DNA from: a virus
Lineage: Duplodnaviria > Caudoviricetes
Reading direction: 5' to 3' (one strand)
DNA length: 60,180 bases
IMG/VR virus record: IMGVR_UViG_3300028840_002990
Location: 1 to 60,180 of that record
The notes beneath the pieces are model-generated. The model saw nothing but the letters and a program-made list of their open reading frames with translations, was not told the DNA's origin and searched no databases. This document shows positions 1 through 60,180 of this stretch, in pieces; positions within the stretch are counted from its first letter, which is position 1; each line of letters opens with the position of its first letter. Position numbers and translations under genes: made by a program.

Positions 1-144
1 TTAGGCCGCCCCTTGCCTGAGAATGGGGCAGAAAGGAAACCATGAACGCAAGTATCAAGGTGATGAATAGTTATGATTATTGCCATTTTGAAGTGGCATT
101 ATCAGCCGAAGATGTCTCTCTTGAAGATGTTGACAATCTTCGCA
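1..144. repeat. Terminal direct repeat, left copy (circular assembly overlap)
   Basis: 1-144 is identical to 60037-60180 and splits a gene; unit genome 60,036 bp. Confidence 0.95.
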
Positions 145-383
145 AAGATGCTCAACGGCTGGTAGATAAGGCAATCAAACAGTACAAGATTGCCAAGCGT
201 GTTGCGGCGATTGATCGAACACCATCGCTAGAATTGGAGCGCAAGGTTCAGGCTATCAAAGAAAATTTTCCACAGTCGGAGTGGTCGCCTGAACAGCAAG
301 CATACGTGAAAGAACTTGAAGATCGGAACTTTCGCGCCTCGCTATCTTACGACTACGAAGATGATTGGGAAGATGATTATTAG
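42..383 (+). CDS. Hypothetical protein, cassette B5 cargo
   Basis: 113 aa ORF with AAGGA RBS; flanked by GTTAGGCCGCC (60036 onward) and GGCGGCCTAAC (383-393). Confidence 0.8.
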   Translation: MNASIKVMNSYDYCHFEVALSAEDVSLEDVDNLRKDAQRLVDKAIKQYKIAKRVAAIDRTPSLELERKVQAIKENFPQSEWSPEQQAYVKELEDRNFRASLSYDYEDDWEDDY

Positions 384-410
384 GCGGCCTAACAAAACGT
401 GCAGACGTAA
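383..410 (+). mobile_element. Truncated attC (left half) of cassette B5
   Basis: GGCGGCCTAAC then AAAACGTGCAG resembles the R''-spacer-L'' of the intact sites; no R' follows. Confidence 0.7.
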
Positions 411-430
411 TTCCGGTGAAAGTAGGTATC

Positions 431-658
431 ATGTTCAAGATTGATGTTTGCAAAGTTTGTGGCGTGAATTGCTTTTGGATTGAATGCGTTGACGGTGACT
501 TAGCAGAAAAAGAAGTTTGCTCACCTGAATGTCTGGCGAAATTATCAGTCTGCCCAACACAGCATGCACTTGACGGTGGTACGGGTTCCGTTTTGCATGG
601 AATTTACACAGAAGAAGGATGGATAACCCCGCAAAGGGGCAGGAAGGAAGGTGAATGA
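431..658 (+). CDS. Small Cys-rich hypothetical protein (degenerate cassette)
   Basis: CKVC and CSPEC motifs; reads through an attC left half at 552-578. Confidence 0.6.
   Translation: MFKIDVCKVCGVNCFWIECVDGDLAEKEVCSPECLAKLSVCPTQHALDGGTGSVLHGIYTEEGWITPQRGRKEGE
552..578 (+). mobile_element. attC left-half remnant
   Basis: GCCCAAC-ACAGC-ATGCAC matches the R''/spacer/L'' pattern of 58422 and 59157. Confidence 0.55.
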
Positions 659-749
659 TGGATGAAATAACCCAAAGAAACAACTTTATGAGGATTTTTG
701 TCTTGCCTGATAATTATCCAGAAGGTTTTTTGTTTGGCGGCGCTCCTTT

Positions 750-772
750 GCCGCTAACGCAAACCGTTAGGT
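750..772 (+). mobile_element. attC right-half remnant
   Basis: CCGCTAACGCAAACCGTTAGGT; CTAACGCAAACCGTTAG is identical to the right end of attC B3 (59228-59244). Confidence 0.75.
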
Positions 773-13035: not shown

Positions 13036-14518
13036 ATTAGAACTACGGCGTAGGGCGCAAAGCGGGGAAATAAAAAAATCAAAATACAAAGAATTTCAGG
13101 AAAAATACCGAAATGATTTAGCGGGGTTTGCAAACGATTGTATATCGTGGCGCGAAAAAGAATATCCAACAGATTACCAGTTAGAAGGAATGCGGCGGCT
13201 AGTAAAGTACAAGCGTTTTTCATTGCGTGGCCCTCATGGTTTGGGGAAAACCATGTTTGCCGCAATTGCTGTTTTATGGTTTGCTCTAACTCGTGATGGG
13301 GAAGATTGGAAAATTCCTACACTTGCCTCGGCCTGGAGGCAGGTATCAAAATTTCTTTGGCCTGAAATAAGGAAATGGTCAAGGCGGTTGAAGTGGGGCG
13401 TTATTGGTCGCAACCCGTTCAACGAGAATAGAGAATTGCTTACACTGAGTTTGAAGTTGTCAACTGGTGAAGCCTTTGCAATGGCAAGCAATGATGAGTC
13501 TTTGATTGAGGGGGCACATGCGGACAATATACTATATTTGTTCGATGAATCGAAATCAATACCAGATGCAACATGGGATGCCGCAGAAGGGGCGATGTCT
13601 ACAACCGGGGAGTGCTATTGGTTGGCAGTATCAACGCCCGGTGAACCGATTGGGAGATTCTTTGACATTCATTCTAAAAAGGGCGGGTATGAGGATTGGG
13701 ATGCCCTTAAAGTCACACTAGAAATGGCAATCAAAGCGGGGCGCATAGATAGGGATTGGGCTAAAAATCGGGCAAGGCAATGGGGAAAAGATTCGGCGGT
13801 ATATATCAATCGAGTCAAGGGAGACTTTGCGGAAAGCGATGAGGATAGTGTTATCTCGTTGGCCTGGATTGAACGTTCAAACGAGCGATGGTTAGCAAGG
13901 CAAGAGGCAAACGATTTTGGGGATGTTACAGGCTTGGGGGTGGATGTAGGACGAGGCGGAGACCCGTCTGTTATCTGCCTACAATGTGAAGATGCAATAA
14001 AAGAATTCCGCAAAATACAGGTAAAAAATACAATGCACGTTACCGGATTAGTTATTGGTTTGCTGAAAAACCATCATAAATCAAAGGCAAGTATAGATGT
14101 GATCGGAATAGGGGCGGGAGTCGTTGACAGATGCAGGGAAGTTATAAACGAATTGAGAAACGTAATATTTCCAAACCCGAATGATAGGATTATTGCTTTC
14201 AATGCCGCAGAGAAAACAGACTTAAAAGATAGTTCAGGGGAATTGGGCTTTGTGGATTCTAGGTCGGCTGGATGGTGGAATCTTCGTGAGAAGTTGCAGA
14301 ATGATGAGGTTGATTTACCCCCGGAAGATGAATTGACCGGGGAGTTAGTTTCTCCTAAATGGGTGGTACAATCAGGAGGAAAAATAAAAGTTGAAAGCAA
14401 GAAAGATATAAAGAAACGCTTAGGCCGAAGTACCAACTATGCAGATACGGTCATTCAGGTTTACATGCCTCCCCCCGTTCAAAAAATGGCTGGTGCATTC
14501 GGTAGGAGAAAAAGGTAA
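13007..14518 (+). CDS. terL: Terminase large subunit
   Basis: Walker A GPHGLGKT, Walker B YLFDES, STP, nuclease GVDVGRGGD, RSTNYAD. Confidence 0.93.
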   Translation: MSLQTQVQAELELRRRAQSGEIKKSKYKEFQEKYRNDLAGFANDCISWREKEYPTDYQLEGMRRLVKYKRFSLRGPHGLGKTMFAAIAVLWFALTRDGEDWKIPTLASAWRQVSKFLWPEIRKWSRRLKWGVIGRNPFNENRELLTLSLKLSTGEAFAMASNDESLIEGAHADNILYLFDESKSIPDATWDAAEGAMSTTGECYWLAVSTPGEPIGRFFDIHSKKGGYEDWDALKVTLEMAIKAGRIDRDWAKNRARQWGKDSAVYINRVKGDFAESDEDSVISLAWIERSNERWLARQEANDFGDVTGLGVDVGRGGDPSVICLQCEDAIKEFRKIQVKNTMHVTGLVIGLLKNHHKSKASIDVIGIGAGVVDRCREVINELRNVIFPNPNDRIIAFNAAEKTDLKDSSGELGFVDSRSAGWWNLREKLQNDEVDLPPEDELTGELVSPKWVVQSGGKIKVESKKDIKKRLGRSTNYADTVIQVYMPPPVQKMAGAFGRRKR

Positions 14519-16758
14519 TGACTGAAAAACCCACTCCCCCCCGAAAAGGCACAAGAGCAGATTTGAAATTGAGATTGAATCGGGCAGAACAAACCATACA
14601 GTTTTTGGCGAATTCAACCCTGACCCGCAGAGCCGCTTATGCGGCCTCTCTAGGAAAACAGTTTGACGGTGATCGAGATTTATATGCCGTTTTTGGATAT
14701 AAAATATCCCCTGATTTTCAAGACTTCTTGCTTGCCTATGAGCGCGAAGGGCTCGCAGCTAGAGTCGCAGACGCAAAGCCAAATGCAACATGGAGCAAGC
14801 ACCCAATCCTTTATGTTGGTGGCGAGGCTCCAAGCGAAGAAAATCCGGGGGAACTGCAAAAGAAGTTTGACGAATTTGCTAACGAATACGACCTCTACGC
14901 AAAACTGAAAGAGCTTGATAGAGCCTGCGCGATTAGCCGCTTTGGTTTGATGTTCCTGGGTTTACCCGGCGACCCTAGAGAGCCAGTAGAAAACGTCAGA
15001 GAGGGAGATTTAGCCTTTATCACTGTACACGATGAGGGAGATGGGGAAATAGATGAGGGGAGCATTATTCAAGACACAGAAAACCCCCGCTTTGGCCTGC
15101 CTGAGTATTATTACATCATTGTTAGCGAAACCAATCAGGAAAAGAAACGAGTCCATCATTCCCGCGTAATCCATTACAAGCGAGGCAAGCAAAGAACTGG
15201 GTACGGGCGCGTGTACGGTGTTCCTGATCTGAAAAATATTTTCAACCGATTCTATGATCTTGAAAAAGTGGTAGGCGGTGGGAGCGAGGCATTTTGGTTG
15301 TTAGTGCGAAAAGGTCTTGCATTGATGGCAAGGGATGGAATGAATTTACCCTCAGAGGGAACAGACGCCTATGAAGTTTTAGAGGATGAGGTAGAGGAAT
15401 ACGAGCATCAATTATCCAGAATTATGAAATTGGTCGGCCTGGATATTCAGGAATTGGGAAGCGACCCGGTTTCTAGTCGAGATCAATTCGATGTGTTGAT
15501 TGAATATATTGCAGGGTCAGAGGAAATCCCGCAGAGACTTCTTTTAGGGTCTGAGCGGGGAGAACTGGCAAGTTCACAAGATCAAGCAAATTGGTTTGGT
15601 AACATTGAAGAAAGGCGAAATAACGAGGCCGAGCCTTATATTTTGCGGCCTGTTCTGGATAAGCTGGATGAATTGGGTCTTTTCGATTTACCAGATGAAT
15701 ATAAAGTTTTCTGGCCTCCATTGTTTACGCTGACAGAACCGGAGGAGGTAGAGGTTGCTAGTACGGTTGCACAGACTATTTATACAATCACAGGCGGTAT
15801 GCCTGAGTTGGCTATTCCGCTTGAGGAATTCATGAAACTGCTACCGGGTAAATGGTCATATGCGATGGATAAAGAGCAGATCAAAAAGATTGAGGAAGCA
15901 AAGCGGAAACCGGACGAAGCTAACCAAAAGGAAGATGAAAAAACAAAGGTTGACATTTCTGATTTGCTCTCCAAGTTGCCACAAGGGGAGGAAACAAAAC
16001 AGAATGCCCGGGCAATTATGAGCCGCCTTATCGAGGGGGTAAGCGGGTCAATCAAGGGCGATTTAGTGGAGAACTTCGGGACACTGGACGCTTACCAGAA
16101 TCCTATGGTTTGGCACAATGCAAATGGAACGGGCGAGTATGCAACCATGATTGCATTCATGATACCCGAAGTCATCCGCCAAGAGTTGAAAGCAAAATAT
16201 CCCTGGATACAAGATGACGTGTTAGACGAAATGCACATGACTCTTGTGTACCTGGGTGACATTCGCACATTATCAAGAGCTAGAATTTTCGAGGCGGTTG
16301 CTGAGTTTGCGAGTACGGTACAACCGATCAAAACCACTATGCAGGGACTCGCCCGGTTCGTTTCTGAAATGGAAAAAGACCCGATTGTCGCAACTTATGA
16401 CAGTCCACAAAATGAAATCGTTATGCTGCGGGAACAGTTAGCGGCTATACTTCGCACGATGGGAATCCCATACCATGATAATCATGGGTTTATCCCCCAT
16501 ACGACATTTGCATACATCCCTAAAAACGAGTCTATGCCTGATGACTCTTTTGAGCGGGTAGAGATCAATTTCAATATGGTTTCGGTGGTGATTGGTCAAG
16601 AGCAATATGATTTCGATTTAGGTAGATACCCTGACAATTTGCCTGAGATCATGCCTCCTCCCCCTCCACAAAAGGTACAACATCCAATAGAGGATTCAGG
16701 TCTTGACCCATACAATGAGCGGGGTAATTTTGACCCGGCAAATGAGGAGACTCATTGA
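14518..16758 (+). CDS. Portal protein (DUF1073-type) fused to a C-terminal 2H phosphoesterase
   Basis: Follows TerL; IPQRLLLGSERGELASSQD; HMTL and PHTTF 2H motifs. Confidence 0.85.
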   Translation: MTEKPTPPRKGTRADLKLRLNRAEQTIQFLANSTLTRRAAYAASLGKQFDGDRDLYAVFGYKISPDFQDFLLAYEREGLAARVADAKPNATWSKHPILYVGGEAPSEENPGELQKKFDEFANEYDLYAKLKELDRACAISRFGLMFLGLPGDPREPVENVREGDLAFITVHDEGDGEIDEGSIIQDTENPRFGLPEYYYIIVSETNQEKKRVHHSRVIHYKRGKQRTGYGRVYGVPDLKNIFNRFYDLEKVVGGGSEAFWLLVRKGLALMARDGMNLPSEGTDAYEVLEDEVEEYEHQLSRIMKLVGLDIQELGSDPVSSRDQFDVLIEYIAGSEEIPQRLLLGSERGELASSQDQANWFGNIEERRNNEAEPYILRPVLDKLDELGLFDLPDEYKVFWPPLFTLTEPEEVEVASTVAQTIYTITGGMPELAIPLEEFMKLLPGKWSYAMDKEQIKKIEEAKRKPDEANQKEDEKTKVDISDLLSKLPQGEETKQNARAIMSRLIEGVSGSIKGDLVENFGTLDAYQNPMVWHNANGTGEYATMIAFMIPEVIRQELKAKYPWIQDDVLDEMHMTLVYLGDIRTLSRARIFEAVAEFASTVQPIKTTMQGLARFVSEMEKDPIVATYDSPQNEIVMLREQLAAILRTMGIPYHDNHGFIPHTTFAYIPKNESMPDDSFERVEINFNMVSVVIGQEQYDFDLGRYPDNLPEIMPPPPPQKVQHPIEDSGLDPYNERGNFDPANEETH

Positions 16759-17210: not shown

Positions 17211-19820
17211 ATGACTTTCCCTACCCCCCTGCCTGAATTGCCCGTTCTCCTCCCTCCCCGTCCATACCGTGACGGGGGAGAGCCTTTCTTTGCTTTCACA
17301 GACAAAGAGACTCAGGAATTCTTGGAAGACAATTCAGACATCCAAAATAGTATTGACCTATGGAATAGAAAATCCCGCCTGGTTGGATACCTTGAGGCTG
17401 AGTCAATTGATGTTATTCAATTCCACTATGGCCCCGGCCCCCATCCCGGTACTGGTACGAGTCAAGATGTACATGGAGGGGATGGGGTAAAGGCTGAACC
17501 AAGAGGAAAGTATAAACATCCAATTCTAAAAGATGATGAACCTTTGAGTATTGCAAAAATTTGGGAGTCTTTTCAATGGCTTGAAAAGCAAAGACAGGAG
17601 GAGTTAGAAGCGGAATTGGAAAGGGAGCAAGGCATTGATAAAGAGGCAAGAGAGGAACGAATAGAGGAATTATCTGATGAATATGCAAAAGTTTTAGCTG
17701 ATGAATATGAATCATTTGCATTTGAGCATTGGAATTCTCTGACCGAAGAACAACAAGAGGCAATCAGGGAATATCAAAATGGGGAGTATGGTGATATAAA
17801 CGAATATCTTAGGGAGGGTGTCTATTTAGAAAATGAACATTATGTTGATCTTATTGCTGATTCTGCTACTCCATCCCCTCAAGATATAATGCTTTATAGG
17901 GGCATGGAAACCATGAGGTATGAAGATTTAGAGGCGGGGGACATTATTACAGATGACGGTTTTTTTTCATCCTCTGTTCACCAATCGGTTGCTTATTCTT
18001 TCATAAAGAATGCAGATAAAGGGGAACAAGAGGTTGCTTTTATTATTTTGGTAGATGAAGGGTTTCCGATTATCCCGGCTGATAGTAAAGACTATCCTAG
18101 TGAGGATGAAGTTATACTATTACCCGGTACAAGTTTTCATGTAGTGGATGTTTTCGAGGATGAATTTTTCTACAGTGACGATATTGATAAAGTTGTTTAT
18201 TTGAAAGCATTGACTCCAAGCGAAGCCCAAAACGGACTTGATAAGGGTTGGGAACTTTTACCAGAACCAAAACTAATACCAAAACCAGAACCAACCCCTG
18301 ATTTGCAACCTGCTTTGTTTTCAAAAGAACCAATCCCGATTCCAATTCTGGAAAGATGGGATGAAAATTTTTATTCCGAGGGCATAAGGGTTTACAGGCG
18401 GCAAAAGGTTTCCCAACATCATTATGGCCCCGGCCCCCATCCCGGTACTGGTACGAGTCAAGATGTGCATGGAGGGGATGGGGAGGAAAGAACTTACTCA
18501 GAAGTTGAAAAATATATGTATGAGGGTTTTGCAAAGAGGCATTGGGAAACCCTTACCCCTAGACAAAAACAGGTGATCAAAGCCTACGGTGATGATTACT
18601 ATGAATATTATAATGGGTATGCAAGAGGCCAAATTACAGCCACAGATTACAGTGAACAGGTTTCTGAAATAAATTCTGCTAGTATGCCTGCTCCATACGA
18701 TATGAAGGTGTACCGGGGAACTGAAAGTTTCCGATTCAACGATCTTGAAAGTGGTGATATATTTCATGATGCTGGATTTTTCTCTACTTCAATCCATAAA
18801 GATATTGCTGCAGATTTTGCCGATGTTCCATCAAAGGAAAAAGATCAAGTTGTTTTTGAAGTTCTTATTCCACATGCATTTCCTATTATCCCCTACGATA
18901 GCACAGACTTTGAACCAGAGGATGAAATCTTTTTTCCCGCTGGCACTTATTTTGAGGTCAAATCATCTGAGGATGACGTTTATTTTTCTTATGCTGGCAA
19001 TGTGAAACTTATTCAACTTGAGGCTATATACCCATCACAAGCAAGGGCAAAACAGAATGTAGAGAAAAGTAAAGTGCCTGAAAAATTGATTCCTGTTCCA
19101 ATTCTTGAGCGGTGGGCAACCGATGATTTTGATGGGGTTGGGATAACGATTATAAAGAAAGAAAAGAAAGAAAAGAAAATTTCCCAACATGCCCGGAAAC
19201 TTGTAGAGGTTTATTTCGATTTTCCAACAGGGGTTTATAGGTACATTGTTTCAGGCCGAAAAGTACCTGACCATCGTTTGCATTTAGGGAATGCCAGAGT
19301 CGCAAAGTCTCAACAAGGGGCAATGAAAGAGCTTACTCGGCAATTGGTAAACGGCGAGATCAATCAAGAGATTTGGTATAAGGAAATGCGACAAATGATG
19401 AAAGATCAATACCGGGCGGCTTGGCTTGCCAGTATTGGAGGCAGGGAGAACTATACCCGCTCCGAGATTTCAAAATTTGGTTGGGCTGTACGCCCTCAAT
19501 ACCGCTGGCTTGACAATTTTCTTGCTGAGTTGCAATCAGGAAAACAACCCTTGAATGCTTTTGCTATCATGCGATCTGGCATGTACGCGAGGGCGGGGAA
19601 TGCGATCTACCAGAACAATAGACTTAGGATAGCAATCGAAGCAGGGATGAAAGAGGCGAGGAGAATTCTAGGGGTTACGGAACATCACTGTCATGATACG
19701 TTGACCAAACCTGGGTGTATTGAATTAGCGGCTGAGGGATGGATTCCTATAATGCAAGCTGTACCAATCGGGGATGCAAGTTGTTATTCAATGTGTTTGT
19801 GTAGATGGGAGTTTAGATAA
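17211..19820 (+). CDS. Minor head (MuF-like) protein with two VIP2-type ADP-ribosyltransferase domains
   Basis: Two R-S-ExE sets (LYRG/FFSSS/SEDEV and VYRG/FFSTS/PEDEI); C-terminal HC..C..C...C.C; lies after the portal. Confidence 0.8.
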   Translation: MTFPTPLPELPVLLPPRPYRDGGEPFFAFTDKETQEFLEDNSDIQNSIDLWNRKSRLVGYLEAESIDVIQFHYGPGPHPGTGTSQDVHGGDGVKAEPRGKYKHPILKDDEPLSIAKIWESFQWLEKQRQEELEAELEREQGIDKEAREERIEELSDEYAKVLADEYESFAFEHWNSLTEEQQEAIREYQNGEYGDINEYLREGVYLENEHYVDLIADSATPSPQDIMLYRGMETMRYEDLEAGDIITDDGFFSSSVHQSVAYSFIKNADKGEQEVAFIILVDEGFPIIPADSKDYPSEDEVILLPGTSFHVVDVFEDEFFYSDDIDKVVYLKALTPSEAQNGLDKGWELLPEPKLIPKPEPTPDLQPALFSKEPIPIPILERWDENFYSEGIRVYRRQKVSQHHYGPGPHPGTGTSQDVHGGDGEERTYSEVEKYMYEGFAKRHWETLTPRQKQVIKAYGDDYYEYYNGYARGQITATDYSEQVSEINSASMPAPYDMKVYRGTESFRFNDLESGDIFHDAGFFSTSIHKDIAADFADVPSKEKDQVVFEVLIPHAFPIIPYDSTDFEPEDEIFFPAGTYFEVKSSEDDVYFSYAGNVKLIQLEAIYPSQARAKQNVEKSKVPEKLIPVPILERWATDDFDGVGITIIKKEKKEKKISQHARKLVEVYFDFPTGVYRYIVSGRKVPDHRLHLGNARVAKSQQGAMKELTRQLVNGEINQEIWYKEMRQMMKDQYRAAWLASIGGRENYTRSEISKFGWAVRPQYRWLDNFLAELQSGKQPLNAFAIMRSGMYARAGNAIYQNNRLRIAIEAGMKEARRILGVTEHHCHDTLTKPGCIELAAEGWIPIMQAVPIGDASCYSMCLCRWEFR
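17424..18483 (+). repeat. Two 64 bp near-identical copies encoding HYGPGPHPGTGTSQDVHGGDG
   Basis: 17424-17487 and 18420-18483; third diverged copy at 23895-23951. Confidence 0.9.
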
Positions 19821-19826
19821 AACGCA

Positions 19827-20093
19827 ATGAATGAGAAAACATTGAAGCGCGATAAAAATCAATCAAAAGACAAACTGATCAAGATCGTGGACGATGAGGG
19901 GCATGTTCTGTTTTTCTTCAACCCTGAAACGGGTTGCGTTGAGGTTAGGGGGAGAACACGCGGGGGGAATCGCAGTACCAACCATAAAATATTTGAGATC
20001 AACTTGGATGAAATATCAAGAGCAGGGAGAACCAATATCCTAGCCGCTAAACCAATCTATGAAATCAAGGCCGGGGTGATTGAAACTATTTGA
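19827..20093 (+). CDS. Hypothetical protein
   Basis: 88 aa ORF. Confidence 0.65.
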   Translation: MNEKTLKRDKNQSKDKLIKIVDDEGHVLFFFNPETGCVEVRGRTRGGNRSTNHKIFEINLDEISRAGRTNILAAKPIYEIKAGVIETI

Positions 20094-20094
20094 C

Positions 20095-20123
20095 TTGACA
20101 CATTTACAAATGTACATTACAAT
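20095..20123 (+). promoter_or_regulatory. Sigma70-type promoter driving cassette array A
   Basis: TTGACA-17-TACAAT; overlaps the palindrome AATGTACATT (20109-20118). Confidence 0.8.
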
Positions 20124-20153
20124 GTACTTACCCTAAAAAATAGGAGTTATTAC

Positions 20154-20360
20154 ATGGGTGATTTCAGACCAAAATTAAATTCTCATGAAGATATTTTCTT
20201 AGCAATTCAAGAGGAATTGAATAAGAATGCTGTTACCTCATTGAATCTTACAACTATTGTAAAGATTTGTGGAGAACGGGCTTTTTTATCTCTTTTCCCT
20301 GACAGGAAAAATGAGTTGTTGGGTTTACAGCGTCAACGATATGAGAAAATTGATTTTTAA
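20154..20360 (+). CDS. Small hypothetical protein ending at attI-like site A
   Basis: TAGGAG RBS; stop codon overlaps the AATGTACATT palindrome. Confidence 0.7.
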   Translation: MGDFRPKLNSHEDIFLAIQEELNKNAVTSLNLTTIVKICGERAFLSLFPDRKNELLGLQRQRYEKIDF

Positions 20361-20389
20361 TGTACATTCCGCTCAAACACTAGTTAGCC
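20359..20389 (+). mobile_element. attI-like site A
   Basis: AATGTACATTCCGCTCAAACACTAG|TTAGCC; 25 of 27 bases through GTT match 58249-58275; heads the array. Confidence 0.72.
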
Positions 20390-20410
20390 GCCACTTGAAG
20401 GAATAGTCAC

Positions 20411-20635
20411 ATGGCATATAAAAAAGGTAATCACTGTAACAATAATTGCGCCCACTTTTTCGGCGAAGATGTAACTATCTATAATCCGTATCATGGCGGC
20501 AATCCTGGCTCAACAGATTATGAGCAATATCAAATGTATTGTTGCGCCGAAGTTGCCCATGGTGAGCGTATCTATAAAGTCCGTTATGCTTGCCCTATCT
20601 ATCAGGCAGCTAACAAAGCATGGAGCGGACGGTAG
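20411..20635 (+). CDS. Cys-rich hypothetical protein, cassette A1 cargo
   Basis: AAGGA RBS; reads into the attC (ANKAWSGR). Confidence 0.75.
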   Translation: MAYKKGNHCNNNCAHFFGEDVTIYNPYHGGNPGSTDYEQYQMYCCAEVAHGERIYKVRYACPIYQAANKAWSGR

Positions 20636-20693
20636 AAATGTTACCTGAAATCCTGACAGCTTTATCGTCCGCCGCTCATGCAGGCCGTTAGGC
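20608..20693 (+). mobile_element. attC site A1 (86 bp)
   Basis: AGCTAAC..GCATGGAGCGG / CCGCTCATGC (one extrahelical base)..GTTAGGC. Confidence 0.9.
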
Positions 20694-20708
20694 GCTATCT
20701 TGCAAAGG

Positions 20709-21032
20709 ATGAAAATGATTACAGAAAAAGAACTCGATGCAATCGCTTGGCGTGCTGGTCGTGGTTGTCATTTTGAAAAAACGTTTGTTGGCCCAAATGG
20801 GTACACACAGAAAGTGTGCGAAGAAGATGTGCCTGCGCTTATCAGAGAATTGCGAATGGTGAGAGAATTTGTCAAGGCAAATATTGAGCTTGCAAATCTC
20901 AACACTACTTTGATTGAGTTTGTGTCAGAAGTCAATTACTCTCCATACAATGATAGTGATTGTCTTTCGCTTTTAGAAAGTTTGCGTTCACGAGCTGCGA
21001 CAATCCTGAGAGAGATTGAAGCGCCTAAGTGA
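20709..21032 (+). CDS. Hypothetical protein, cassette A2 cargo
   Basis: Begins after GTTAGGCGCT and ends over the remnant AGCGCCTAAG (21020-21029). Confidence 0.75.
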   Translation: MKMITEKELDAIAWRAGRGCHFEKTFVGPNGYTQKVCEEDVPALIRELRMVREFVKANIELANLNTTLIEFVSEVNYSPYNDSDCLSLLESLRSRAATILREIEAPK

Positions 21033-50771: not shown

Positions 50772-51416
50772 TCATTGTTGTTTTTTATTGCCTCTTGCGC
50801 CCTCAAATAAATCTACCGCAAGCGGTTTATTGAGAGGGTTTTTTCTACACTTGCCCTCATGACTGTTTGTTGCGTTGATCGCTCCGCGTTCGGTCTGATA
50901 TTGGTCAGACCAACCACAACCGAATCGGCATTCGGTTTTATGTTTGGTCGGTTTGGTCGGTTTCGGTGTGCTTTCGGTCTGCTTCGGTTTTGTTTCGCTT
51001 TTCAACGAAAAAAGCGATTTCCCAGCGACAACCGCCGCAAATACAATAGACAGATCGGGCAAAGACGCCCATGCTACAGCCACAGTAATTGCGACCCATG
51101 ACTCCAAAATTGTTTCGGACAATTCAATCCATAATGCAGGCGCAACCGCAACGGGCGATAGGCACAAAGCTAATGCCATTGCCCCATAACCTAAATACCT
51201 GCGCCTCGGAGATTGGATAGCTGATACCCTAGACGACCCAAAGGCTAGAGATAGGGAGGGGATAATACCCGCGACTGCGCCCATGTACCATCGCTGAAAA
51301 TATATATCCCCCGCAACACTAAATAATACAGCTTGCACAATCCCCGCCACGATTGGGAGATAGTCGCCATTTAGTTTTATTTTCATCTTTTTTCCATTCT
51401 CTAGTTGTCTAGTCAA
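50772..51416 (-). CDS. Polytopic membrane protein with C-terminal Zn finger
   Basis: Four TM segments; CRFGC..H...C. Confidence 0.7.
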   Translation of the reverse strand: MTRQLENGKKMKIKLNGDYLPIVAGIVQAVLFSVAGDIYFQRWYMGAVAGIIPSLSLAFGSSRVSAIQSPRRRYLGYGAMALALCLSPVAVAPALWIELSETILESWVAITVAVAWASLPDLSIVFAAVVAGKSLFSLKSETKPKQTESTPKPTKPTKHKTECRFGCGWSDQYQTERGAINATNSHEGKCRKNPLNKPLAVDLFEGARGNKKQQ

Positions 51417-52561
51417 TTGATTACTATGCCTGATATTACAGGAGACTCAGTGTCGTCAACCTCCTCCCCACCGTCATCTACCCTATGATTCGCGCTCATA
51501 TGAGTGAATTGATCGGGGAAAATTGCATTTTCTGGAAATACAATCGTTATGGGGAAGTGGGTTGGTTTTGTTCTTTTTATGTAGCCACAAAACCATTTCC
51601 CTATTTCTGTTATATGATAAAGGCCGTTTTCGTCAACGATTGCAAAGCCATTATCAATCAAGAAATTCTCACGGAAGAAAACAAAAACATCACGGCTCCA
51701 AAGTGTTTTTGAGTCATCTGCTCCCTCCCATTTGTTTATGCCTAATGTCTCCCCGCTAACAACAATCCTTTCGCAGAATTCATAGAGTTGATCGAGGCTA
51801 CAAAACGCAATCCCCGCCCAAATGCGTGTACCATGACAGAAGTCAAACTCAATCCCGTTTTTCCCTTTTTCTTTTTGCGAGGTTTCGTAATATTTGTCAA
51901 ACGTGTTTGCTGTCTTCGATTCTGCTGGTGCTTGTTCCCTGTAAATGCGACTTGCTCTGACAACTATCCACAGAAATGCGATAACTACAATAATTGCAAT
52001 CCCAAAAACAATCATTGCGATATTTCCAATATAAGATATTCTATCTGCCATTTCAGTGGCTTCTTTGGTTTGGGTTGCCGCGATTCTCATGGCTTCATCC
52101 TGTGCGATTGCAAGCGCAACCTGAGCTTCCCTGTCTTTTTGCGCCATGACTGCCGGGAAAGCGGTAGCAGTCAGGTCAAGACGCCTTTGCTCTAGTGCGA
52201 GTTTTTCCATTTCCCTATCATGCGCATCCTGTTCAACCTGGGCGGTTGCATCAATGTGCATTGCCTCTAATGCGTTGGTAGTTCCAACTGCATTGTTCGC
52301 TTTTTCGCGCTCTATATTGGCCTGTGCCTGTGCTTCATTGGCCTGACTCTCCCATGCCTGAGCGGTCAATTCGTAGCCGATTGTAGCCGTAGGAATGGGG
52401 GTATGCGTTGGCTTTGCCCTGGTTGGTTCTGGCGAATGTTGTACTGTTACGGTTGACTGCTCTGCAATTGCGCTGGTAGTTGGTAGCTCAATATCTGAGC
52501 AGGCGCGATAACCAAAAACCAAAGCAATTGCAAGTACAACAGAGATAACCACTTTTTTCAT
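51413..52561 (-). CDS. Bitopic membrane protein with coiled coil
   Basis: Signal/TM, Pro/Thr linker, TATA repeats, second TM. Confidence 0.7.
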   Translation of the reverse strand: MKKVVISVVLAIALVFGYRACSDIELPTTSAIAEQSTVTVQHSPEPTRAKPTHTPIPTATIGYELTAQAWESQANEAQAQANIEREKANNAVGTTNALEAMHIDATAQVEQDAHDREMEKLALEQRRLDLTATAFPAVMAQKDREAQVALAIAQDEAMRIAATQTKEATEMADRISYIGNIAMIVFGIAIIVVIAFLWIVVRASRIYREQAPAESKTANTFDKYYETSQKEKGKNGIEFDFCHGTRIWAGIAFCSLDQLYEFCERIVVSGETLGINKWEGADDSKTLWSRDVFVFFRENFLIDNGFAIVDENGLYHITEIGKWFCGYIKRTKPTHFPITIVFPENAIFPDQFTHMSANHRVDDGGEEVDDTESPVISGIVIN

Positions 52562-56053: not shown

Positions 56054-56249
56054 ATCTGCTCCTATACTTGCAAAATTTGAAGCAGGAACAGGAAAGCAAA
56101 GAGACTTGGCAATATTGATTAGTTATATGCAGGAACTTGATTTCCTTTATGATGAAATGATTACCAATCCCCCGGCTGTTATTAGTCAACCTCTGAGTGA
56201 AGAAGATGCAAATAAAATAGCCGATTTTATGACAAGGAAAAAAGAATGA
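55977..56249 (+). CDS. Hypothetical protein (possible helicase accessory)
   Basis: Between initiator and DnaB; ATGA overlap with dnaB. Confidence 0.6.
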   Translation: MTKNMPRLPKPNPEYYEIKLQKIKNKSAPILAKFEAGTGKQRDLAILISYMQELDFLYDEMITNPPAVISQPLSEEDANKIADFMTRKKE

Positions 56250-57580
56250 CAGAACAAAATATTCCCCAAAACTTAGAGATAGAGGAAACCGTTATAGGGA
56301 CGATTTTTAGGGGAGGTCGTGAAACCTACGAGTTGGTATCTGATTTTGTCTCTGTTTCCGATTTTTATAGTCATTCCTTGCAAACAGTTTGGAATGCGAT
56401 TGAAAATGTCTATCAAGATGGGTTGCAGATTGACTCCATTACCGTAGGTGATTTTTTAGAACGCAATAGACGCTTGCAGGATGTAAGTCATGGGCAAAAG
56501 GTAGGACTCGTGTACTTGTCATATATACACGAAGCGGCGGGGTTGCCGGGGAATATCGAAAGTTACGCAGATCAACTAAAAGAATATTCTGTAAAACGAG
56601 AATTACTGAATCAAGCTAATCAAATTGCCGCTTGGTCATTCAATGGGCGTAGGGCAAAGGATATTGTTTCTGATGTGGTTCACAAATTCGGGGAAATTCA
56701 AGTGACTAATGGGCAGGCTGATAAACATACACAATCAATTGGGGATGCCGTTTCAGATGCTTATACCCATACATCAAAAGCCGCAAATGGAGAAATCCAT
56801 TGCGTACAAACTGGATTGATTGATTTGGATACCCTGCTGACGGGGGTATATGGTTCTGACTTATTGCTTATTGCAGGTCGTCCGGGACAGGGCAAAAGCG
56901 CATTGCTTACCACAATCGGAAAAAACGTTGCAGAAACCGGAAAACGGGTTGCAATTTTTGGTCTTGAAATGTCAAATAAACAAACTGCTCAAAGGTTGGT
57001 TGCTCAGGTTAGTGGAGTACCAACAGACAGGCAGAGAAGCGGAAAATTACTAGAGGATGAATGGGTAAAATATACAAATGGAGTAGAGGAAATAAGCCAA
57101 CTTCCAATTATCCTAAACGATATGCCTGCAATTAGCCCAAATGGGATTAGAAAGGTTTTGCGTAAAATAGGCGATGTTGATCTTGTGATTGTAGATTATA
57201 TTCAACTACAAAAATCAGACGAAAAAAGCGATGTGCGCTATCAGGAGGTGGATGCAATTTCACGCGGATTGAAGGGGGTTGCAAAAGAATTTGATATTCC
57301 TGTTTTAGCGGCGGCTCAATTATCCAGAGCAGTAGAGCAGAGATCAAATAAGCGGCCTGTGTTATCAGACCTGCGCGAAAGTGGGGGATTAGAGCAGGAT
57401 AGCGATGTAGTTATGTTTATTTATCGCGCTGACCTGTACGAAAAGAACGCAACCCAAAACATTGTTGAGGTGATTGTAGCAAAACATAGAAATGGTTCTG
57501 TTGGGAGCGTTGAACTTGTATTCAGACCTACCCTAACGAAATTTGAAAATGCTGTTACTAAACAGGTAGAGTTTGCGTAA
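56246..57580 (+). CDS. dnaB: Replicative DNA helicase
   Basis: AGRPGQGKS, LEMS, IVDYIQL, QLSR..RP.LSDLRESG.LEQD.D, AKHRNG. Confidence 0.96.
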   Translation: MTEQNIPQNLEIEETVIGTIFRGGRETYELVSDFVSVSDFYSHSLQTVWNAIENVYQDGLQIDSITVGDFLERNRRLQDVSHGQKVGLVYLSYIHEAAGLPGNIESYADQLKEYSVKRELLNQANQIAAWSFNGRRAKDIVSDVVHKFGEIQVTNGQADKHTQSIGDAVSDAYTHTSKAANGEIHCVQTGLIDLDTLLTGVYGSDLLLIAGRPGQGKSALLTTIGKNVAETGKRVAIFGLEMSNKQTAQRLVAQVSGVPTDRQRSGKLLEDEWVKYTNGVEEISQLPIILNDMPAISPNGIRKVLRKIGDVDLVIVDYIQLQKSDEKSDVRYQEVDAISRGLKGVAKEFDIPVLAAAQLSRAVEQRSNKRPVLSDLRESGGLEQDSDVVMFIYRADLYEKNATQNIVEVIVAKHRNGSVGSVELVFRPTLTKFENAVTKQVEFA

Positions 57581-57590
57581 TGAAACGTTC

Positions 57591-57619
57591 TTGACAAGCA
57601 ACGCAAGCCATGATAAGAT
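57591..57619 (+). promoter_or_regulatory. Sigma70-type promoter upstream of cassette array B
   Basis: TTGACA-17-TAAGAT; upstream TAATGAAAC(G/A)TTCTTGACAA shared with 5161-5180. Confidence 0.7.
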
Positions 57620-57636
57620 GGATGCAGATAGGAGAA

Positions 57637-58266
57637 ATGAAGGTGAAAACTGAAACAAAACCAGTTGTATATCAAGAGAAATGTCAAAGTTTGACATTTT
57701 GCTCCCCCGAATTTTTGGCTGAGATCAAGGAACACGGCGATACAATTGAATTCAATATCTTTGAGATCGCCCAAAAAGTACGGGATTACATGATTTCTAA
57801 TGCAACCATCCCGGTTGAAACCGTGTACTATGAAATTGCTACCTATGCCCTGAGAGGCCGCAAGCCTCGGACGGTCAGAGATTGGGTTGAGGGGATTGCG
57901 GGATTTCAGGATGAATCAATCACAGGATGGACAGAGGCAGGGCTTACAATGTCTCATTTCAAATCTGCCCGAAAACTGTACCGGGATGATTTCGTAGAAT
58001 CCCCCTCCGAGGCTTTGGATGCCTGCATAAACCAGCGCAAAGAATCAGATCGCCCCTTGACCGTTTCACAAATGGAAAACCTTTTCCTGCCTGTTGAAAC
58101 CGGGCAAGAGGAGTTATTCAAATTTGCTACGTGGTTGAGAAGTATTTTAGACAGGCAACCCCCGGCCTTTTGGCCTGAGAGTAAACGAAAAGAATTTTCA
58201 AGCTGGCTTGATTATGGTAAAAAGTTCATGCCGGAACTAAAATCAAAAAATGTACATTCCGCATAA
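57637..58266 (+). CDS. Hypothetical protein ending inside attI-like site B
   Basis: TAGGAG RBS; last codons NVHSA come from the site. Confidence 0.75.
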   Translation: MKVKTETKPVVYQEKCQSLTFCSPEFLAEIKEHGDTIEFNIFEIAQKVRDYMISNATIPVETVYYEIATYALRGRKPRTVRDWVEGIAGFQDESITGWTEAGLTMSHFKSARKLYRDDFVESPSEALDACINQRKESDRPLTVSQMENLFLPVETGQEELFKFATWLRSILDRQPPAFWPESKRKEFSSWLDYGKKFMPELKSKNVHSA

Positions 58267-58279
58267 ACACTAGTTGGGC
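58249..58279 (+). mobile_element. attI-like site B
   Basis: AATGTACATTCCGCATAAACACTAG|TTGGGC; near-identical to 20359-20385. Confidence 0.72.
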
Positions 58280-58307
58280 GGACTCGTCCAAACGAAAGCG
58301 AGTATAA

Positions 58308-58532
58308 ATGATAACAACTCAAGATAAATGTGTATCAGTAGATGATGCGCTAAAAAAGCTAAATTTTATGAAGGCAAGCGGACGGCGTATGTTTTTTTTG
58401 AGTGAACTCAATCCAGACGCTGCCCAACAACGCGTGCAGCCGACTCGTTGCACTGTGCCGAATTGTCACGCTGGCATGGTTCCAGATGGCACATCAGCGC
58501 GTAAAACATGTCCAGTGTGCAACGGCGGCTAA
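58308..58532 (+). CDS. Cassette B1 cargo; second half encoded by the attC
   Basis: 74 aa; CTVPNC..CPVC lies within the hairpin. Confidence 0.6.
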   Translation: MITTQDKCVSVDDALKKLNFMKASGRRMFFLSELNPDAAQQRVQPTRCTVPNCHAGMVPDGTSARKTCPVCNGG

Positions 58533-58548
58533 CGCAAGTCCGTTAGCT
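58422..58548 (+). mobile_element. attC site B1 (127 bp)
   Basis: GCCCAAC..GCGTGCAGCCG / CGGCTAACGC..GTTAGCT; inner CGTTGCAC/GTGCAACG. Confidence 0.88.
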
Positions 58549-58577
58549 GGCTTCTTTGCCAGAGAAAGAAGGAAACA

Positions 58578-58778
58578 ATGTCAGAAGAAATTGGTTTTGA
58601 AGTCTCGCATGAATCCGCAGTCAAAATTGCTTTGTCAATGTATCTTGGCGAGAAGTGTAAGTATTGCGGCAAAGAGTATAAAACTCTTGAAGATTTGAGT
58701 GATACGGTATGGGCTGGCTATCACGAACATGGTCGCCTTGCCTGTCAATCTTGCTGGAATAAAAATAACGCCAGCTAA
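58578..58778 (+). CDS. Small Zn-finger-like protein, cassette B2 cargo
   Basis: CKYC..CQSC; stop codon inside R''. Confidence 0.8.
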   Translation: MSEEIGFEVSHESAVKIALSMYLGEKCKYCGKEYKTLEDLSDTVWAGYHEHGRLACQSCWNKNNAS

Positions 58779-58858
58779 CAAAGCATGGAGCGGACGGTAG
58801 AAATGTTACCTGAAATCCTGACAGCTTTATCGTCCGCCGCTCATGCAGGCCGTTAGCC
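58773..58858 (+). mobile_element. attC site B2 (86 bp)
   Basis: 58772-58856 is identical to 20607-20691. Confidence 0.9.
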
Positions 58859-58883
58859 TGCTTCGTGCGGGCAAGGAGAAAAC

Positions 58884-59162
58884 ATGAACACACGTGATAA
58901 ATGTAAAAATTGTGGCGGTGATAACAGCATCCATCACTACCAAACAAATCAATGTCCTGTTGGTGGGTGCGAATCCGCAATTGGCAGGAAACAGGAATAC
59001 ATGACAACCACCTTTGAGCCTGATAACGAAAGTGAAGTCTCAGAGTTACGTAATTCTGTAAAGGAATTACTTGCCCGCGTTGAAGAACTCGAAGCGCAGG
59101 TTTCACGCCTGCAATCTGGTGCTGAGTTGGAAGAGTCTGTGCGTATCTTTGGCGCAGGCTAA
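58884..59162 (+). CDS. Cys/His plus coiled-coil protein, cassette B3 cargo
   Basis: AAGGAG RBS; CKNC..HH..CP; stop codon inside R''. Confidence 0.8.
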   Translation: MNTRDKCKNCGGDNSIHHYQTNQCPVGGCESAIGRKQEYMTTTFEPDNESEVSELRNSVKELLARVEELEAQVSRLQSGAELEESVRIFGAG

Positions 59163-59246
59163 CACAGCGTGCAGGCGACAAGGGCGGGCGGTGGTTCTTT
59201 ACTGCCAAAGTTATACCGCCCTTGCGCCTAACGCAAACCGTTAGAA
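59157..59246 (+). mobile_element. attC site B3 (90 bp)
   Basis: GGCTAAC..GCGTGCAGGCG / CGCCTAACGC..GTTAGAA; inner CAAGGGCGG/CCGCCCTTG. Confidence 0.9.
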
Positions 59247-59255
59247 GGCTAAAAC

Positions 59256-60056
59256 ATGTTCACTTTGCACAACAAGGATGTCCGAGAAATAATCGAGTCT
59301 CTGAAACACGGCGATATTGATGTCGTGTTTACAGACCCGCCCTATGGCATAGAAGGCTCATCTGGCAAAATAAATCTTGCGCGTGGCAAAGGTAATTATT
59401 CCAGCGAGTTTGAAGATACGCCAGAGTACATCGAAAAAGTTGTTGTGCCTATTGTCAAGAAACTTATTTCAGTTTGTGGGTGTGTGGTTCTTACTCCGGG
59501 TAACAAAAACTTTTCTTTGTATCCCCAGCCTGATTCGTTTGGTTGCTTTTATCAGCCTGCCGCAGTTGGCTTGCAAGTGTTCGGAAATCTTGACGCGCAA
59601 CCAATTTTTTATTATGGCAAAAATGCGTCAAAGAAAAACATGGGCGTTCCATGTTCCTACCAACTCACCGAGAAAGCCGAAAAGAACGGGCATCCATGCG
59701 TAAAGCCTATAAAGGCATGGAAGAAAATGCTTTCAAATATTAGCCTTGTAGGGCAAACAGTATTTGATCCATTCATGGGTTCAGGCACAACAGGCGTTGC
59801 CGCATTGCAACTTGATAGAAATTTTATAGGCTGTGAAATCTCACCTGAGTATTATTCCATCGCTGAGAAGCGCATACAATCGGCGGCTTTACAGCCATCG
59901 CTCTTTACGCCTTCTAACAACCGCTTGCACCCTGACGTGGGGGATTCACCCGCGCAGCAAGCATTATTCACCCCAGAAGCGGATACCGCCGAAGGGAAGT
60001 TACCTGCACCCGCCCCCCCGCAGGTAAAGCGAACCGTTAGGCCGCCCCTTGCCTGA
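59256..60056 (+). CDS. DNA N6-A/N4-C methyltransferase (beta class), cassette B4 cargo
   Basis: TDPPY..HPCVKP..FDPFMGSGTTG..FIGCE; C-terminus reads through the attC. Confidence 0.92.
   Translation: MFTLHNKDVREIIESLKHGDIDVVFTDPPYGIEGSSGKINLARGKGNYSSEFEDTPEYIEKVVVPIVKKLISVCGCVVLTPGNKNFSLYPQPDSFGCFYQPAAVGLQVFGNLDAQPIFYYGKNASKKNMGVPCSYQLTEKAEKNGHPCVKPIKAWKKMLSNISLVGQTVFDPFMGSGTTGVAALQLDRNFIGCEISPEYYSIAEKRIQSAALQPSLFTPSNNRLHPDVGDSPAQQALFTPEADTAEGKLPAPAPPQVKRTVRPPLA
59912..60042 (+). mobile_element. attC site B4 (131 bp)
   Basis: TTCTAAC..CGCTTGCACC / GGTAAAGCG..GTTAGGC; inner GGGGG/CCCCC. Confidence 0.85.
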
Positions 60057-60180
60057 GAATGGGGCAGAAAGGAAACCATGAACGCAAGTATCAAGGTGAT
60101 GAATAGTTATGATTATTGCCATTTTGAAGTGGCATTATCAGCCGAAGATGTCTCTCTTGAAGATGTTGACAATCTTCGCA
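60037..60180. repeat. Terminal direct repeat, right copy
   Basis: Identical to 1-144. Confidence 0.95.

What the first reader, a model, noticed from the sequence alone, without database searches (positions are those of the whole stretch)
58273..60046. Each cassette's end box complements its own start: footprint of insertion as circles
Seen (start / end): B1 GTTGGGC / GCCCAAC; B2 GTTAGCTGGC / GCCAGCTAAC; B3 GTTAGCCTGC / GCAGGCTAAC; B4 GTTAGAAGGC / GCCTTCTAAC; B5 GTTAGGCCGCC / GGCGGCCTAAC (383-393); A1 GTTAGCCGCC / GGCAGCTAAC; A2 GTTAGGCGCT / AGCGCCTAAG. R'' matches the R' at the start of the same cassette rather than the R' of the hairpin it sits in. Established: this pattern results when a circular cassette is opened at G|TT. 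Seven such matches argue for real recombination events rather than terminators or REP-like repeats.
Basis: partly seen in the sequence, partly recalled or inferred. Interest (0 to 1): 0.88.

Follow-up and report, generated by a model that had tools for sequence, protein, structure and literature searches.

The report
Integron gene cassettes inside a phage genome
A complete 60-kb phage genome that has no integrase of its own carries two rows of integron gene cassettes, and each cassette shows the textbook scar of having been inserted as a small DNA circle.

Summary
For B2, B3 and B4 the 10-nt box at the cassette start is the exact reverse complement of the box at the same cassette's end. B5 matches 11/11, A1 and A2 9/10, B1 8/10 with an exact 7-nt core. 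The R' box in the same hairpin matches only 3-5 of 7 variable positions.

This split-attC pattern is the known mark of integron cassettes. I found the same signature in 122 bacterial cassettes and 160 cassettes from other viral contigs, with 0 of 10000 shuffles reaching it each time. Circularising at G|TT stabilises the bottom-strand hairpin by about 5 kcal/mol.

The window is a complete tailed-phage genome with no tyrosine recombinase. Its five intact sites match a covariance model built from Chloroflexota integron attC sites. Both arrays begin at a 25-nt attI-like site. That site recurs in four other viral records in front of different cassettes, and in 0 of 401 bacterial genomes searched.

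In two other metagenomes the B4 methylase cassette starts at exactly the same base, behind a bacterial-type attI.

The principle is known, and cassette clusters in phages were published in 2023. The phage-type attI may be new.

The parts
58249..58275 (+). attI-like site of array B (AATGTACATTCCGCATAAACACTAG|TT). The crossover G is at 58273. The stop codon of phage ORF 57610-58266 lies inside the site.
   Evidence: The same 25-26 nt occur in four other viral records, and identity ends at G|TT.
58274..58542 (+). Cassette B1: ORF 58308-58532 (74 aa, Cys-rich) and attC 58422-58548.
   Evidence: Covariance model hit, E = 1.5e-10. Boxes match 8/10.
58543..58852 (+). Cassette B2: ORF 58578-58778 (66 aa) and attC 58773-58858.
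   Evidence: Model hit, E = 1.2e-8. Boxes 10/10. The own start gives the best fold.
58853..59240 (+). Cassette B3: ORF 58884-59162 (92 aa) and attC 59157-59246.
   Evidence: Model hit, E = 2.3e-13. Boxes 10/10.
59241..60036 (+). Cassette B4: N6/N4 DNA methyltransferase ORF 59256-60056, which reads through its own attC at 59912-60042.
   Evidence: PF01555. Model hit, E = 1.6e-12. Boxes 10/10. Contigs of runs X3 and X4 start at 59240 behind a bacterial-type attI.
1..417 (+). Cassette B5. It starts at 60037, which equals window position 1. ORF 42-383 (113 aa), R'' box 383-393. Only the left half of its attC remains, at 387-417.
   Evidence: Boxes 11/11. Weak model hit, E = 0.13.
418..772 (+). Decayed distal end of array B: a left attC half at 552-596 inside ORF 431-658, a right half ending in G|TT at 766, then backbone.
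   Evidence: Weak model hits at E = 0.1-0.17. No own end box exists for the start at 766.
20095..20360 (+). Promoter-like site 20095-20123 and small gene 20154-20360 (68 aa), directly upstream of attI-like site A.
   Evidence: 11 of 12 consensus letters. Homologues of the 68-aa protein lie directly upstream of the attI-like sites in G002 and G003. G009 has a similar reading frame, judged by eye.
20359..20385 (+). attI-like site of array A (AATGTACATTCCGCTCAAACACTAG|TT). The crossover G is at 20383.
20384..20687 (+). Cassette A1: ORF 20411-20635 (74 aa) and attC 20608-20693. By eye this attC is essentially the same as that of B2.
   Evidence: Model hit, E = 4.1e-9. Boxes 9/10. The own start gives the best fold. 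A contig of run X1 maps across both copies.
20688..21029 (+). Cassette A2: ORF 20715-21032 (105 aa) with a cassette-type leader. Its attC is reduced to the R'' box at 21020-21029, which ends in AAG.
   Evidence: No model hit follows it.

Best explanation
These are genuine integron gene cassettes. Two co-oriented arrays sit in a complete tailed-phage genome that has no integrase.

Each cassette once existed as a circle carrying one attC hairpin. An integron integrase (IntI) cut the folded bottom strand in the conserved AAC triplet, which reads G|TT on the top strand. It joined that end to the G|TT of an attI-type site or of a resident attC. The cut splits the R' box. The letters TTxxxxxxx that pair with the cassette's own R'' box therefore end up at the cassette's 5' end, and the R' left in each hairpin is a hybrid with the next cassette.

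Shown here:
- the box complementarity
- the attC anatomy
- the kinship of these sites to attC sites of Chloroflexota integrons
- the unit boundary at G|TT
- the attI-like junctions that recur in other viral records.

Inferred:
- that the insertions took place in phage DNA at the phage's own attI-like sites
- that the enzyme came in trans, from the host (probably a Chloroflexota bacterium, class Anaerolineae) or from a phage-borne IntI such as the one on viral record G009.
For: 1. Boxes. Own end 6.75 of 7, hairpin partner 4.00, other cassettes 3.89, and 0 of 10000 shuffles reach this. The same holds in 122 bacterial cassettes (6.55, 4.20, 3.88; 0 of 10000) and in 160 cassettes from 119 further viral loci (5.78, 3.62, 3.52; 0 of 10000).

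2. Folding with DNA parameters. In 121 bacterial cassettes the mean was -34.1 kcal/mol with the own start, -29.7 for the linear site and -29.4 for random starts. The own start was more stable than the linear site in 111, equal in 5 and less stable in 5. In the window the own start is best of 8 for 4 of 5 sites. The predicted bottom strands show an R stem, an asymmetric unpaired spacer, single-base bulges on the 3' arm and a variable tip.

3. A covariance model built from 52 bacterial sites hits the window at exactly the five intact sites (E = 1e-8 to 2e-13, all on the + strand). It hits nowhere else in the 60 kb above E = 0.1.

4. The bacterial loci came from a scan whose hits are mostly Chloroflexota: about 49 of the 80 rows shown, by my count of the names. 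TIGR02249 IntI scored above its cut-off in 4 of 5 genomes tested.

5. The window has no PF00589 match in six frames, and IMG/VR rates it a complete record with direct terminal repeats. Terminase, portal, head protease, head protein and endolysin are all present.

6. The attI-like site recurs in four other viral records (G001, G002, G003 twice, G009). Counting the window's two copies that makes seven sites in five records. Left flanks are unrelated, first cassettes differ, and identity ends at G|TT.

7. Contigs of runs X3 and X4 hold the B4 cassette at about 95% identity, starting at 59240. The letters before it end in ...GTATAAAACATA, the attI ending found next to intI in loci L134 and L137.

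8. Of 11 non-identical homologous cassette pairs between records, 10 align from cassette position 1. All 7 pairs I checked have unrelated neighbours apart from attC pieces.
Against: - No integrase is encoded in the window, so the enzyme is inferred.
- No circle junction or excision product was seen. Only contigs could be laid, not raw reads. The one joint in run X1 (58275 to 58772) is array A mapping onto array B.
- B1 (8/10), A1 and A2 (9/10) are imperfect. B5 and A2 lack a complete attC.
- The bacterial sites used for the model were found with motifs taken from the phage sites. The model hits are therefore not fully independent.
- The X3 and X4 evidence is one contig each, at depth 4-6, with 30 loose letters.
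- The attI-like site differs from the attI next to intI in the 4 bacterial loci read. Its function is untested.
- The host is not identified directly.
Confidence: 0.9

Rival explanations
1. The arrays were assembled in a bacterial integron and copied into the phage as blocks by illegitimate or homologous recombination. The footprints would then record events in the host, not in the phage.
For: Qi et al. 2023 suggest this route for cassette clusters in phages (PMC9892861, section 3.4 read). The distal cassettes are decayed. The footprint itself cannot say where the insertion happened.
Against: The left junction is a site found in five viral records (the window included) and in 0 of 401 genomes of the class searched. 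It occurs twice in this phage with different first cassettes. It overlaps the stop codon of a phage gene. No intI remnant lies beside either array.
Confidence: 0.15
2. A non-IntI recombinase makes these insertions, for example the 273-277 aa Xer-like tyrosine recombinase carried by G002 and G003.
For: G002 and G003 each carry such a gene 3-4 kb from their array, in divergent orientation.
Against: The window has no tyrosine recombinase at all. The sites match attC sites of IntI-bearing bacteria. G009 couples the same attI type with a full-length IntI-like protein: TIGR02249 scores 258 bits against a cut-off of 265.
Confidence: 0.05
3. The boxes and hairpins have nothing to do with integrons. 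They are terminators, REP-like repeats, or the inverted ends of small transposons.
For: One hairpin (58526-58549) passes the terminator scan. Each unit is bounded by 10-nt inverted repeats.
Against: Terminator-like sites number 0 and 1, against 1.1 and 3.4 in shuffles. The boxes differ from cassette to cassette beyond GTTAG. The units abut with no spacer or target duplication. The model hits and the recurrence of B4 behind a bacterial-type attI also argue against it.
Confidence: 0.02

Closest known systems
Integron gene cassettes and their attC sites, as in class 1 integrons and sedentary chromosomal integrons
   Same: R''/R' boxes with AAC/GTT, an unpaired spacer, extrahelical bases, a variable tip, one co-oriented ORF per unit, crossover at G|TT, and an attC that is whole only in the circular form (PMC2674596 and PMC5027507, passages read).
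   Different: The carrier is a phage with no intI. Two ORFs (B1, B4) run through most of their attC. The core is GTTAG/GTTGG/GTTCG followed by a G+C-rich extension, so the complementarity reaches 10-11 nt.
Clusters of attC sites lacking an integrase (CALINs) in virulent phages; Qi et al. 2023, PMC9892861 (abstract and section 3.4 read)
   Same: attC-bounded cassettes in phage genomes without intI, including DNA methyltransferase cassettes. That paper showed phage attC sites recombining with IntI1.
   Different: Here two arrays each start at a conserved attI-like site shared by unrelated viral records. In the passages I read, that paper marks attI only for the temperate phages with integrons (the Figure 1 legend). 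The paper holds no mention of Chloroflexota. Its supplementary tables were not available to me.
Sedentary integrons of Chloroflexota (Anaerolineales MAGs: loci L037, L107, L121, L134-L137)
   Same: The same attC family: left half ..AACAAAGCGTGCA.., right half ..TAACGCAAACCGTT... The same box statistics. An attI that ends ..ATAAAACATAG|TT.
   Different: The bacterial attC sites are almost uniform at 129-130 nt. The phage's are 86-131 nt. The bacterial attI carries TATACAGC/GCTGTATA repeats, while the phage site carries an ATGTACAT palindrome.
IntI-mediated insertion at non-att genomic sites (attG); preprint 10.1101/2022.09.11.507474 (abstract seen in a search listing only)
   Same: Cassettes inserted by IntI outside a classical integron platform.
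   Different: Here the target is a conserved 25-nt site that has been used repeatedly, not a dispersed short motif.

Membership tests
integron attC site / gene cassette | R'' and R' boxes with the conserved AAC and GTT triplets flanking an imperfect palindrome | tested here: met
   five complete sites, all on the + strand.
integron attC site / gene cassette | Folded bottom strand with an unpaired central spacer, extrahelical bases on the '' arm and a variable terminal structure | tested here: met
   Predicted folds only. The bottom strand is more stable than the top in 4 of 5 sites; B3 is the exception.
integron attC site / gene cassette | R'' pairs with the start of its own cassette, so the attC is whole only in the circular form | tested here: met
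   Own end 6.75 of 7 against 4.00 for the hairpin partner; 0 of 10000 shuffles.
integron attC site / gene cassette | Similarity to attC sites of arrays in genomes that encode IntI | tested here: met
   Model R1 gives E = 1e-8 to 2e-13. IntI is present in 4 of 5 source genomes. The training sites were chosen with motifs taken from the phage, so independence is partial.
integron attC site / gene cassette | Recombined by an integron integrase | not testable with these tools
   Needs an attC x attI assay.
complete integron | intI gene next to the array | tested here: not met
   No PF00589 match in six frames. tblastn with a Chloroflexota IntI finds nothing real.
complete integron | attI site at the head of the array | tested here: inconclusive
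   A conserved 25-nt site ends in G|TT with different first cassettes in seven sites of five viral records, the window's two included. Its last roughly 12 nt resemble bacterial attI. Function is untested.
complete integron | Promoter upstream that drives the cassettes | tested here: inconclusive
   Consensus matches at 20095-20123 (11 of 12) and 57591-57619 (10 of 12). These are pattern matches only.
CALIN (cluster of attC sites lacking an integrase) | Two or more attC sites with no intI nearby | tested here: met
   Array B has four intact sites. Array A has one intact site plus a remnant.
intrinsic terminators / REP-like repeats | G+C-rich stem followed by a T run; the same repeat at every copy | tested here: not met
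   0 and 1 terminator-like sites against 1.1 and 3.4 in shuffles. The boxes are specific to each cassette.

The most novel reading that the evidence does not exclude
Phages that probably infect Chloroflexota carry their own kind of integron platform. It is a compact attI (ATGTACAT box, about 10 nt, then ..AAACACTAG|TT), often preceded by a small conserved gene, and usually has no integrase.

With it a phage would draw cassettes, such as orphan methyltransferases, from the bacterial cassette pool. The IntI would be supplied in trans by the host or by a related phage; G009 carries a divergent IntI beside this attI type. Cassettes would then move in both directions between phage and bacterial integrons.
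Probability: 0.45. Interest if true: 0.75.

Novelty: new variant of a known kind. Interest (0 to 1): 0.55.

Why it matters
The footprint itself is textbook. Its value here is as proof that the small genes at two places in this phage are real integron cassettes and not phage genes with odd hairpins.

The wider picture is the more interesting part. The right-half motif of this attC family occurs in at least 118 stretches of IMG/VR. About 27 of the arrays examined begin at an attI-like junction. Of 26 viral records checked, only 4 encode an IntI above the cut-off.

If phages hold integrase-less landing pads for cassettes, integrons and phages share a gene pool directly. That bears on two open questions: how cassettes spread between lineages, and how phages acquire anti-restriction genes.

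Tried and rejected
- My first scan used the classical RYYYAAC/GTTRRRY consensus and missed most sites, because these boxes read GCTAAC/GTTAGC. I replaced it.
- The search for related loci with the 218-aa protein upstream of array B found no relative in viral contigs.
- Pfam and PHROGs give no family for the small cassette proteins or for the two upstream proteins. The 382-aa ORF on the minus strand (51413-52561) is not a recombinase by Pfam or PHROGs.
- Circle junctions: only Logan contigs could be laid, and no go-back joint was listed. The single joint in X1 is cross-mapping of array A. This says nothing about whether circles exist.
- The closest metagenome relatives of the B4 methylase (L142-L151, 50-69% identity) are not flanked by this attC type. 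More distant ones are: L152, L154 and L158 (36-45% identity) have hits flanking the gene, and L156 and L157 carry hits within the locus.
- G009's IntI-like protein has no close relative in viral contigs: only itself and one hit at 34% identity.
- The box GGCGGCTAAC at 58524-58533, inside the right half of B1's attC, is the exact complement of A1's start. I could not decide between chance and history.
- Two rows were mis-indexed by me and were redone.
- Rows dropped before counts: duplicate sub-loci L004-L013; the doubtful 558/766 pair; cassettes outside 80-2500 nt; and 10 cassette pairs at 100% identity, set aside as probably overlapping loci of one record.
- Literature searches found no paper on a phage-specific attI type. 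Supplementary tables of PMC9892861 were closed and might list such sites.
Full report
**What the window is.** The last 144 nt repeat the first 144 nt, so the unique sequence is 60036 bp. IMG/VR holds it as a virus record with direct terminal repeats, rated 100% complete. A six-frame search finds no tyrosine recombinase domain (PF00589), while the same search hits all 14 control genomes. Large terminase, portal, head protease, head protein, endolysin and a DnaB helicase are present. It is a tailed phage with no integrase.

**The observation.**
- B2, B3 and B4: exact 10-nt reverse complements.
- B5: 11/11, across the terminal repeat.
- A1 and A2: 9/10.
- B1: 8/10, with an exact 7-nt core.

I scored only the 7 letters after GTT, on the 8 phage cassettes bounded by two detected attC sites (3 in the window, 5 in related viral loci). 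The own end matches 6.75 of 7. The R'' in the same hairpin matches 4.00. Ends of other cassettes match 3.89. None of 10000 shuffles reaches the observed sum. Two window sites, B1 and B4, were added by hand because 1-nt indels hide them from my pattern.

**The proposed test.** I circularised each cassette at G|TT in a script and folded the bottom strand with DNA parameters. In 121 bacterial cassettes the mean energy is -34.1 kcal/mol with the own start, -29.7 for the linear site and -29.4 for random starts. In the window, the own start is the best of 8 starts for B2, B3, B4 and A1, and second for B1.

**What the sites are.** The folds show the following:
- an 8-11 bp R stem
- an asymmetric unpaired spacer
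- an L stem with single-base bulges on the 3' arm
- a variable tip.

These are the attC features listed by Nivina et al. 2016 (PMC5027507, passages read).

About 49 of the 80 rows shown carry Chloroflexota names, by my own count. Many of those loci hold arrays. Their attC sites are nearly uniform at 129-130 nt. TIGR02249 integron integrase scores about 440 bits in 4 of 5 genomes tested.

A covariance model built from 52 of these bacterial sites hits the window at 58422-58548, 58773-58858, 59157-59246, 59912-60042 and 20608-20693, with E between 1e-8 and 2e-13. It gives weak hits only at the decayed halves 387-417, 552-596 and 650-772, plus one chance-level partial hit on the minus strand at 19807-19871 (E = 0.22). 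The training sites were chosen with motifs that came from the phage, so this support is partly circular.

The 122 bacterial cassettes show the same box statistics: 6.55, 4.20 and 3.88, with 0 of 10000 shuffles.

**The heads of the arrays.** Both arrays start behind the same 25 nt: AATGTACATTCCGC, two variable letters, AAACACTAG, then TT. The pattern occurs in four other viral records:
- G001
- G002
- G003, twice (the second copy is a variant)
- G009.

The left flanks are unrelated, the first cassettes differ, and identity stops at G|TT.

G002 and G003 are related to each other. They share with the window only a 68-aa protein, which sits directly upstream of the site.

The pattern was found in 0 of 401 genomes of the class of one Anaerolineales-type MAG.

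The attI next to intI in four bacterial loci ends ..GTATAAAACATAG|TT or similar. It resembles the phage site only in the last dozen letters. Two bacterial loci, L020 and L051, share TAAACACTAGTT exactly.

**Integrases on related viral records.** Of 26 viral records with such junctions, 4 encode IntI above the cut-off. Among the 10 that are at least 90% complete, 2 do (G023 and G033). Those IntI-bearing records use a different attI ending.

G009 has the phage-type site 700 nt downstream of a full-length IntI-like gene. The gene scores 258 bits against a cut-off of 265 and is 29-35% identical to the nine bacterial and viral IntI proteins compared.

G002 and G003 carry only a Xer-like recombinase, which does not match TIGR02249.

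**Mobility of the unit.** Contigs of four public runs were laid on 56200-60180.
- X3 (freshwater) and X4 (bioreactor): a contig matches the B4 cassette at about 95% identity, starting exactly at 59240. The letters before it end in ..GTATAAAACATA, which is the bacterial attI ending.
- X3 also holds the cassette behind an attC right half.
- X7 (wastewater): the stretch 59159-59242 recurs without a difference, but in another context.

Among 300 cassettes from my loci, 10 of 11 non-identical homologous pairs align from cassette position 1. All 7 pairs checked have unrelated neighbours apart from attC pieces.

**Mechanism and limits.** The cassettes were opened at G|TT by an IntI-type enzyme. That part is as secure as sequence analysis can make it. 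Two further steps are inferred: that the insertions happened in the phage at its own attI-like sites, and that the enzyme came in trans. No circle junction could be looked for in raw reads. B5 and A2 have lost most of their attC, so the distal ends of both arrays are decaying.

**Comparison with what is known.** The rule that a cassette's attC is whole only in the circular form is standard (PMC2674596). Cassette clusters in virulent phages, methyltransferase cassettes among them, were reported by Qi et al. 2023 (PMC9892861). What I did not find in print is a phage-type attI shared by unrelated phages that mostly lack intI.

**Earlier notes of this scan.** Notes on the same window record the second array, the attI candidate, the shared attC and the distal decay. 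I reached the same points independently before reading them.

Noticed in passing
window 1-144 and 60037-60180: The two ends of the window are identical (a 144-nt direct terminal repeat). Array B therefore runs across the end of the record.
   Followed up: yes
window 20607-20691 and 58772-58856: By eye essentially the same attC follows two unrelated ORFs, A1 and B2. I ran no alignment of the two. Contigs of run X1 map across both copies.
   Followed up: partly
window 58524-58533: A second R''-like box inside the right half of B1's attC is the exact complement of the start of cassette A1 at the other array. I could not tell chance from a trace of past recombination.
   Followed up: no
window 59256-60056: The methyltransferase ORF has no stop before its attC. 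It reads through all 131 nt of the site and stops 18-20 nt into the next cassette. The ORF of B1 likewise runs through most of its attC.
   Followed up: no
window 20095-20130, 20359-20368, 58249-58258: The palindrome AATGTACATT occurs in the promoter-like site upstream of the 68-aa gene and in both attI-like sites. Related boxes flank the promoter in L001. It could be an operator for a small phage protein.
   Followed up: partly
L338 (G009) 832-1905: The IntI-like gene of this viral record starts a few bases after the G|TT of an attC site, as if it were itself a cassette. It is co-oriented with the array.
   Followed up: partly
L338 310-369 against window 59151-59213 and 766-775: G009 holds the left part of the window's B3 attC (95% identity), joined to the same GTTAGGTGGCTT that ends the window's array B.
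   Followed up: no
window 17211-19820 and 14518-16758: A head-module protein carries an Alt-like ADP-ribosyltransferase region. The portal protein has a C-terminal extension that matches RNA ligase families in PHROGs.
   Followed up: no
L020 (Chloroflexi MAG), position 1952 on the minus strand: An attI-like core (..CCTAAACACTAG|TTGGGCGGC) lies in the middle of a bacterial cassette array, with attC sites on both sides and no intI within 8 kb.
   Followed up: partly
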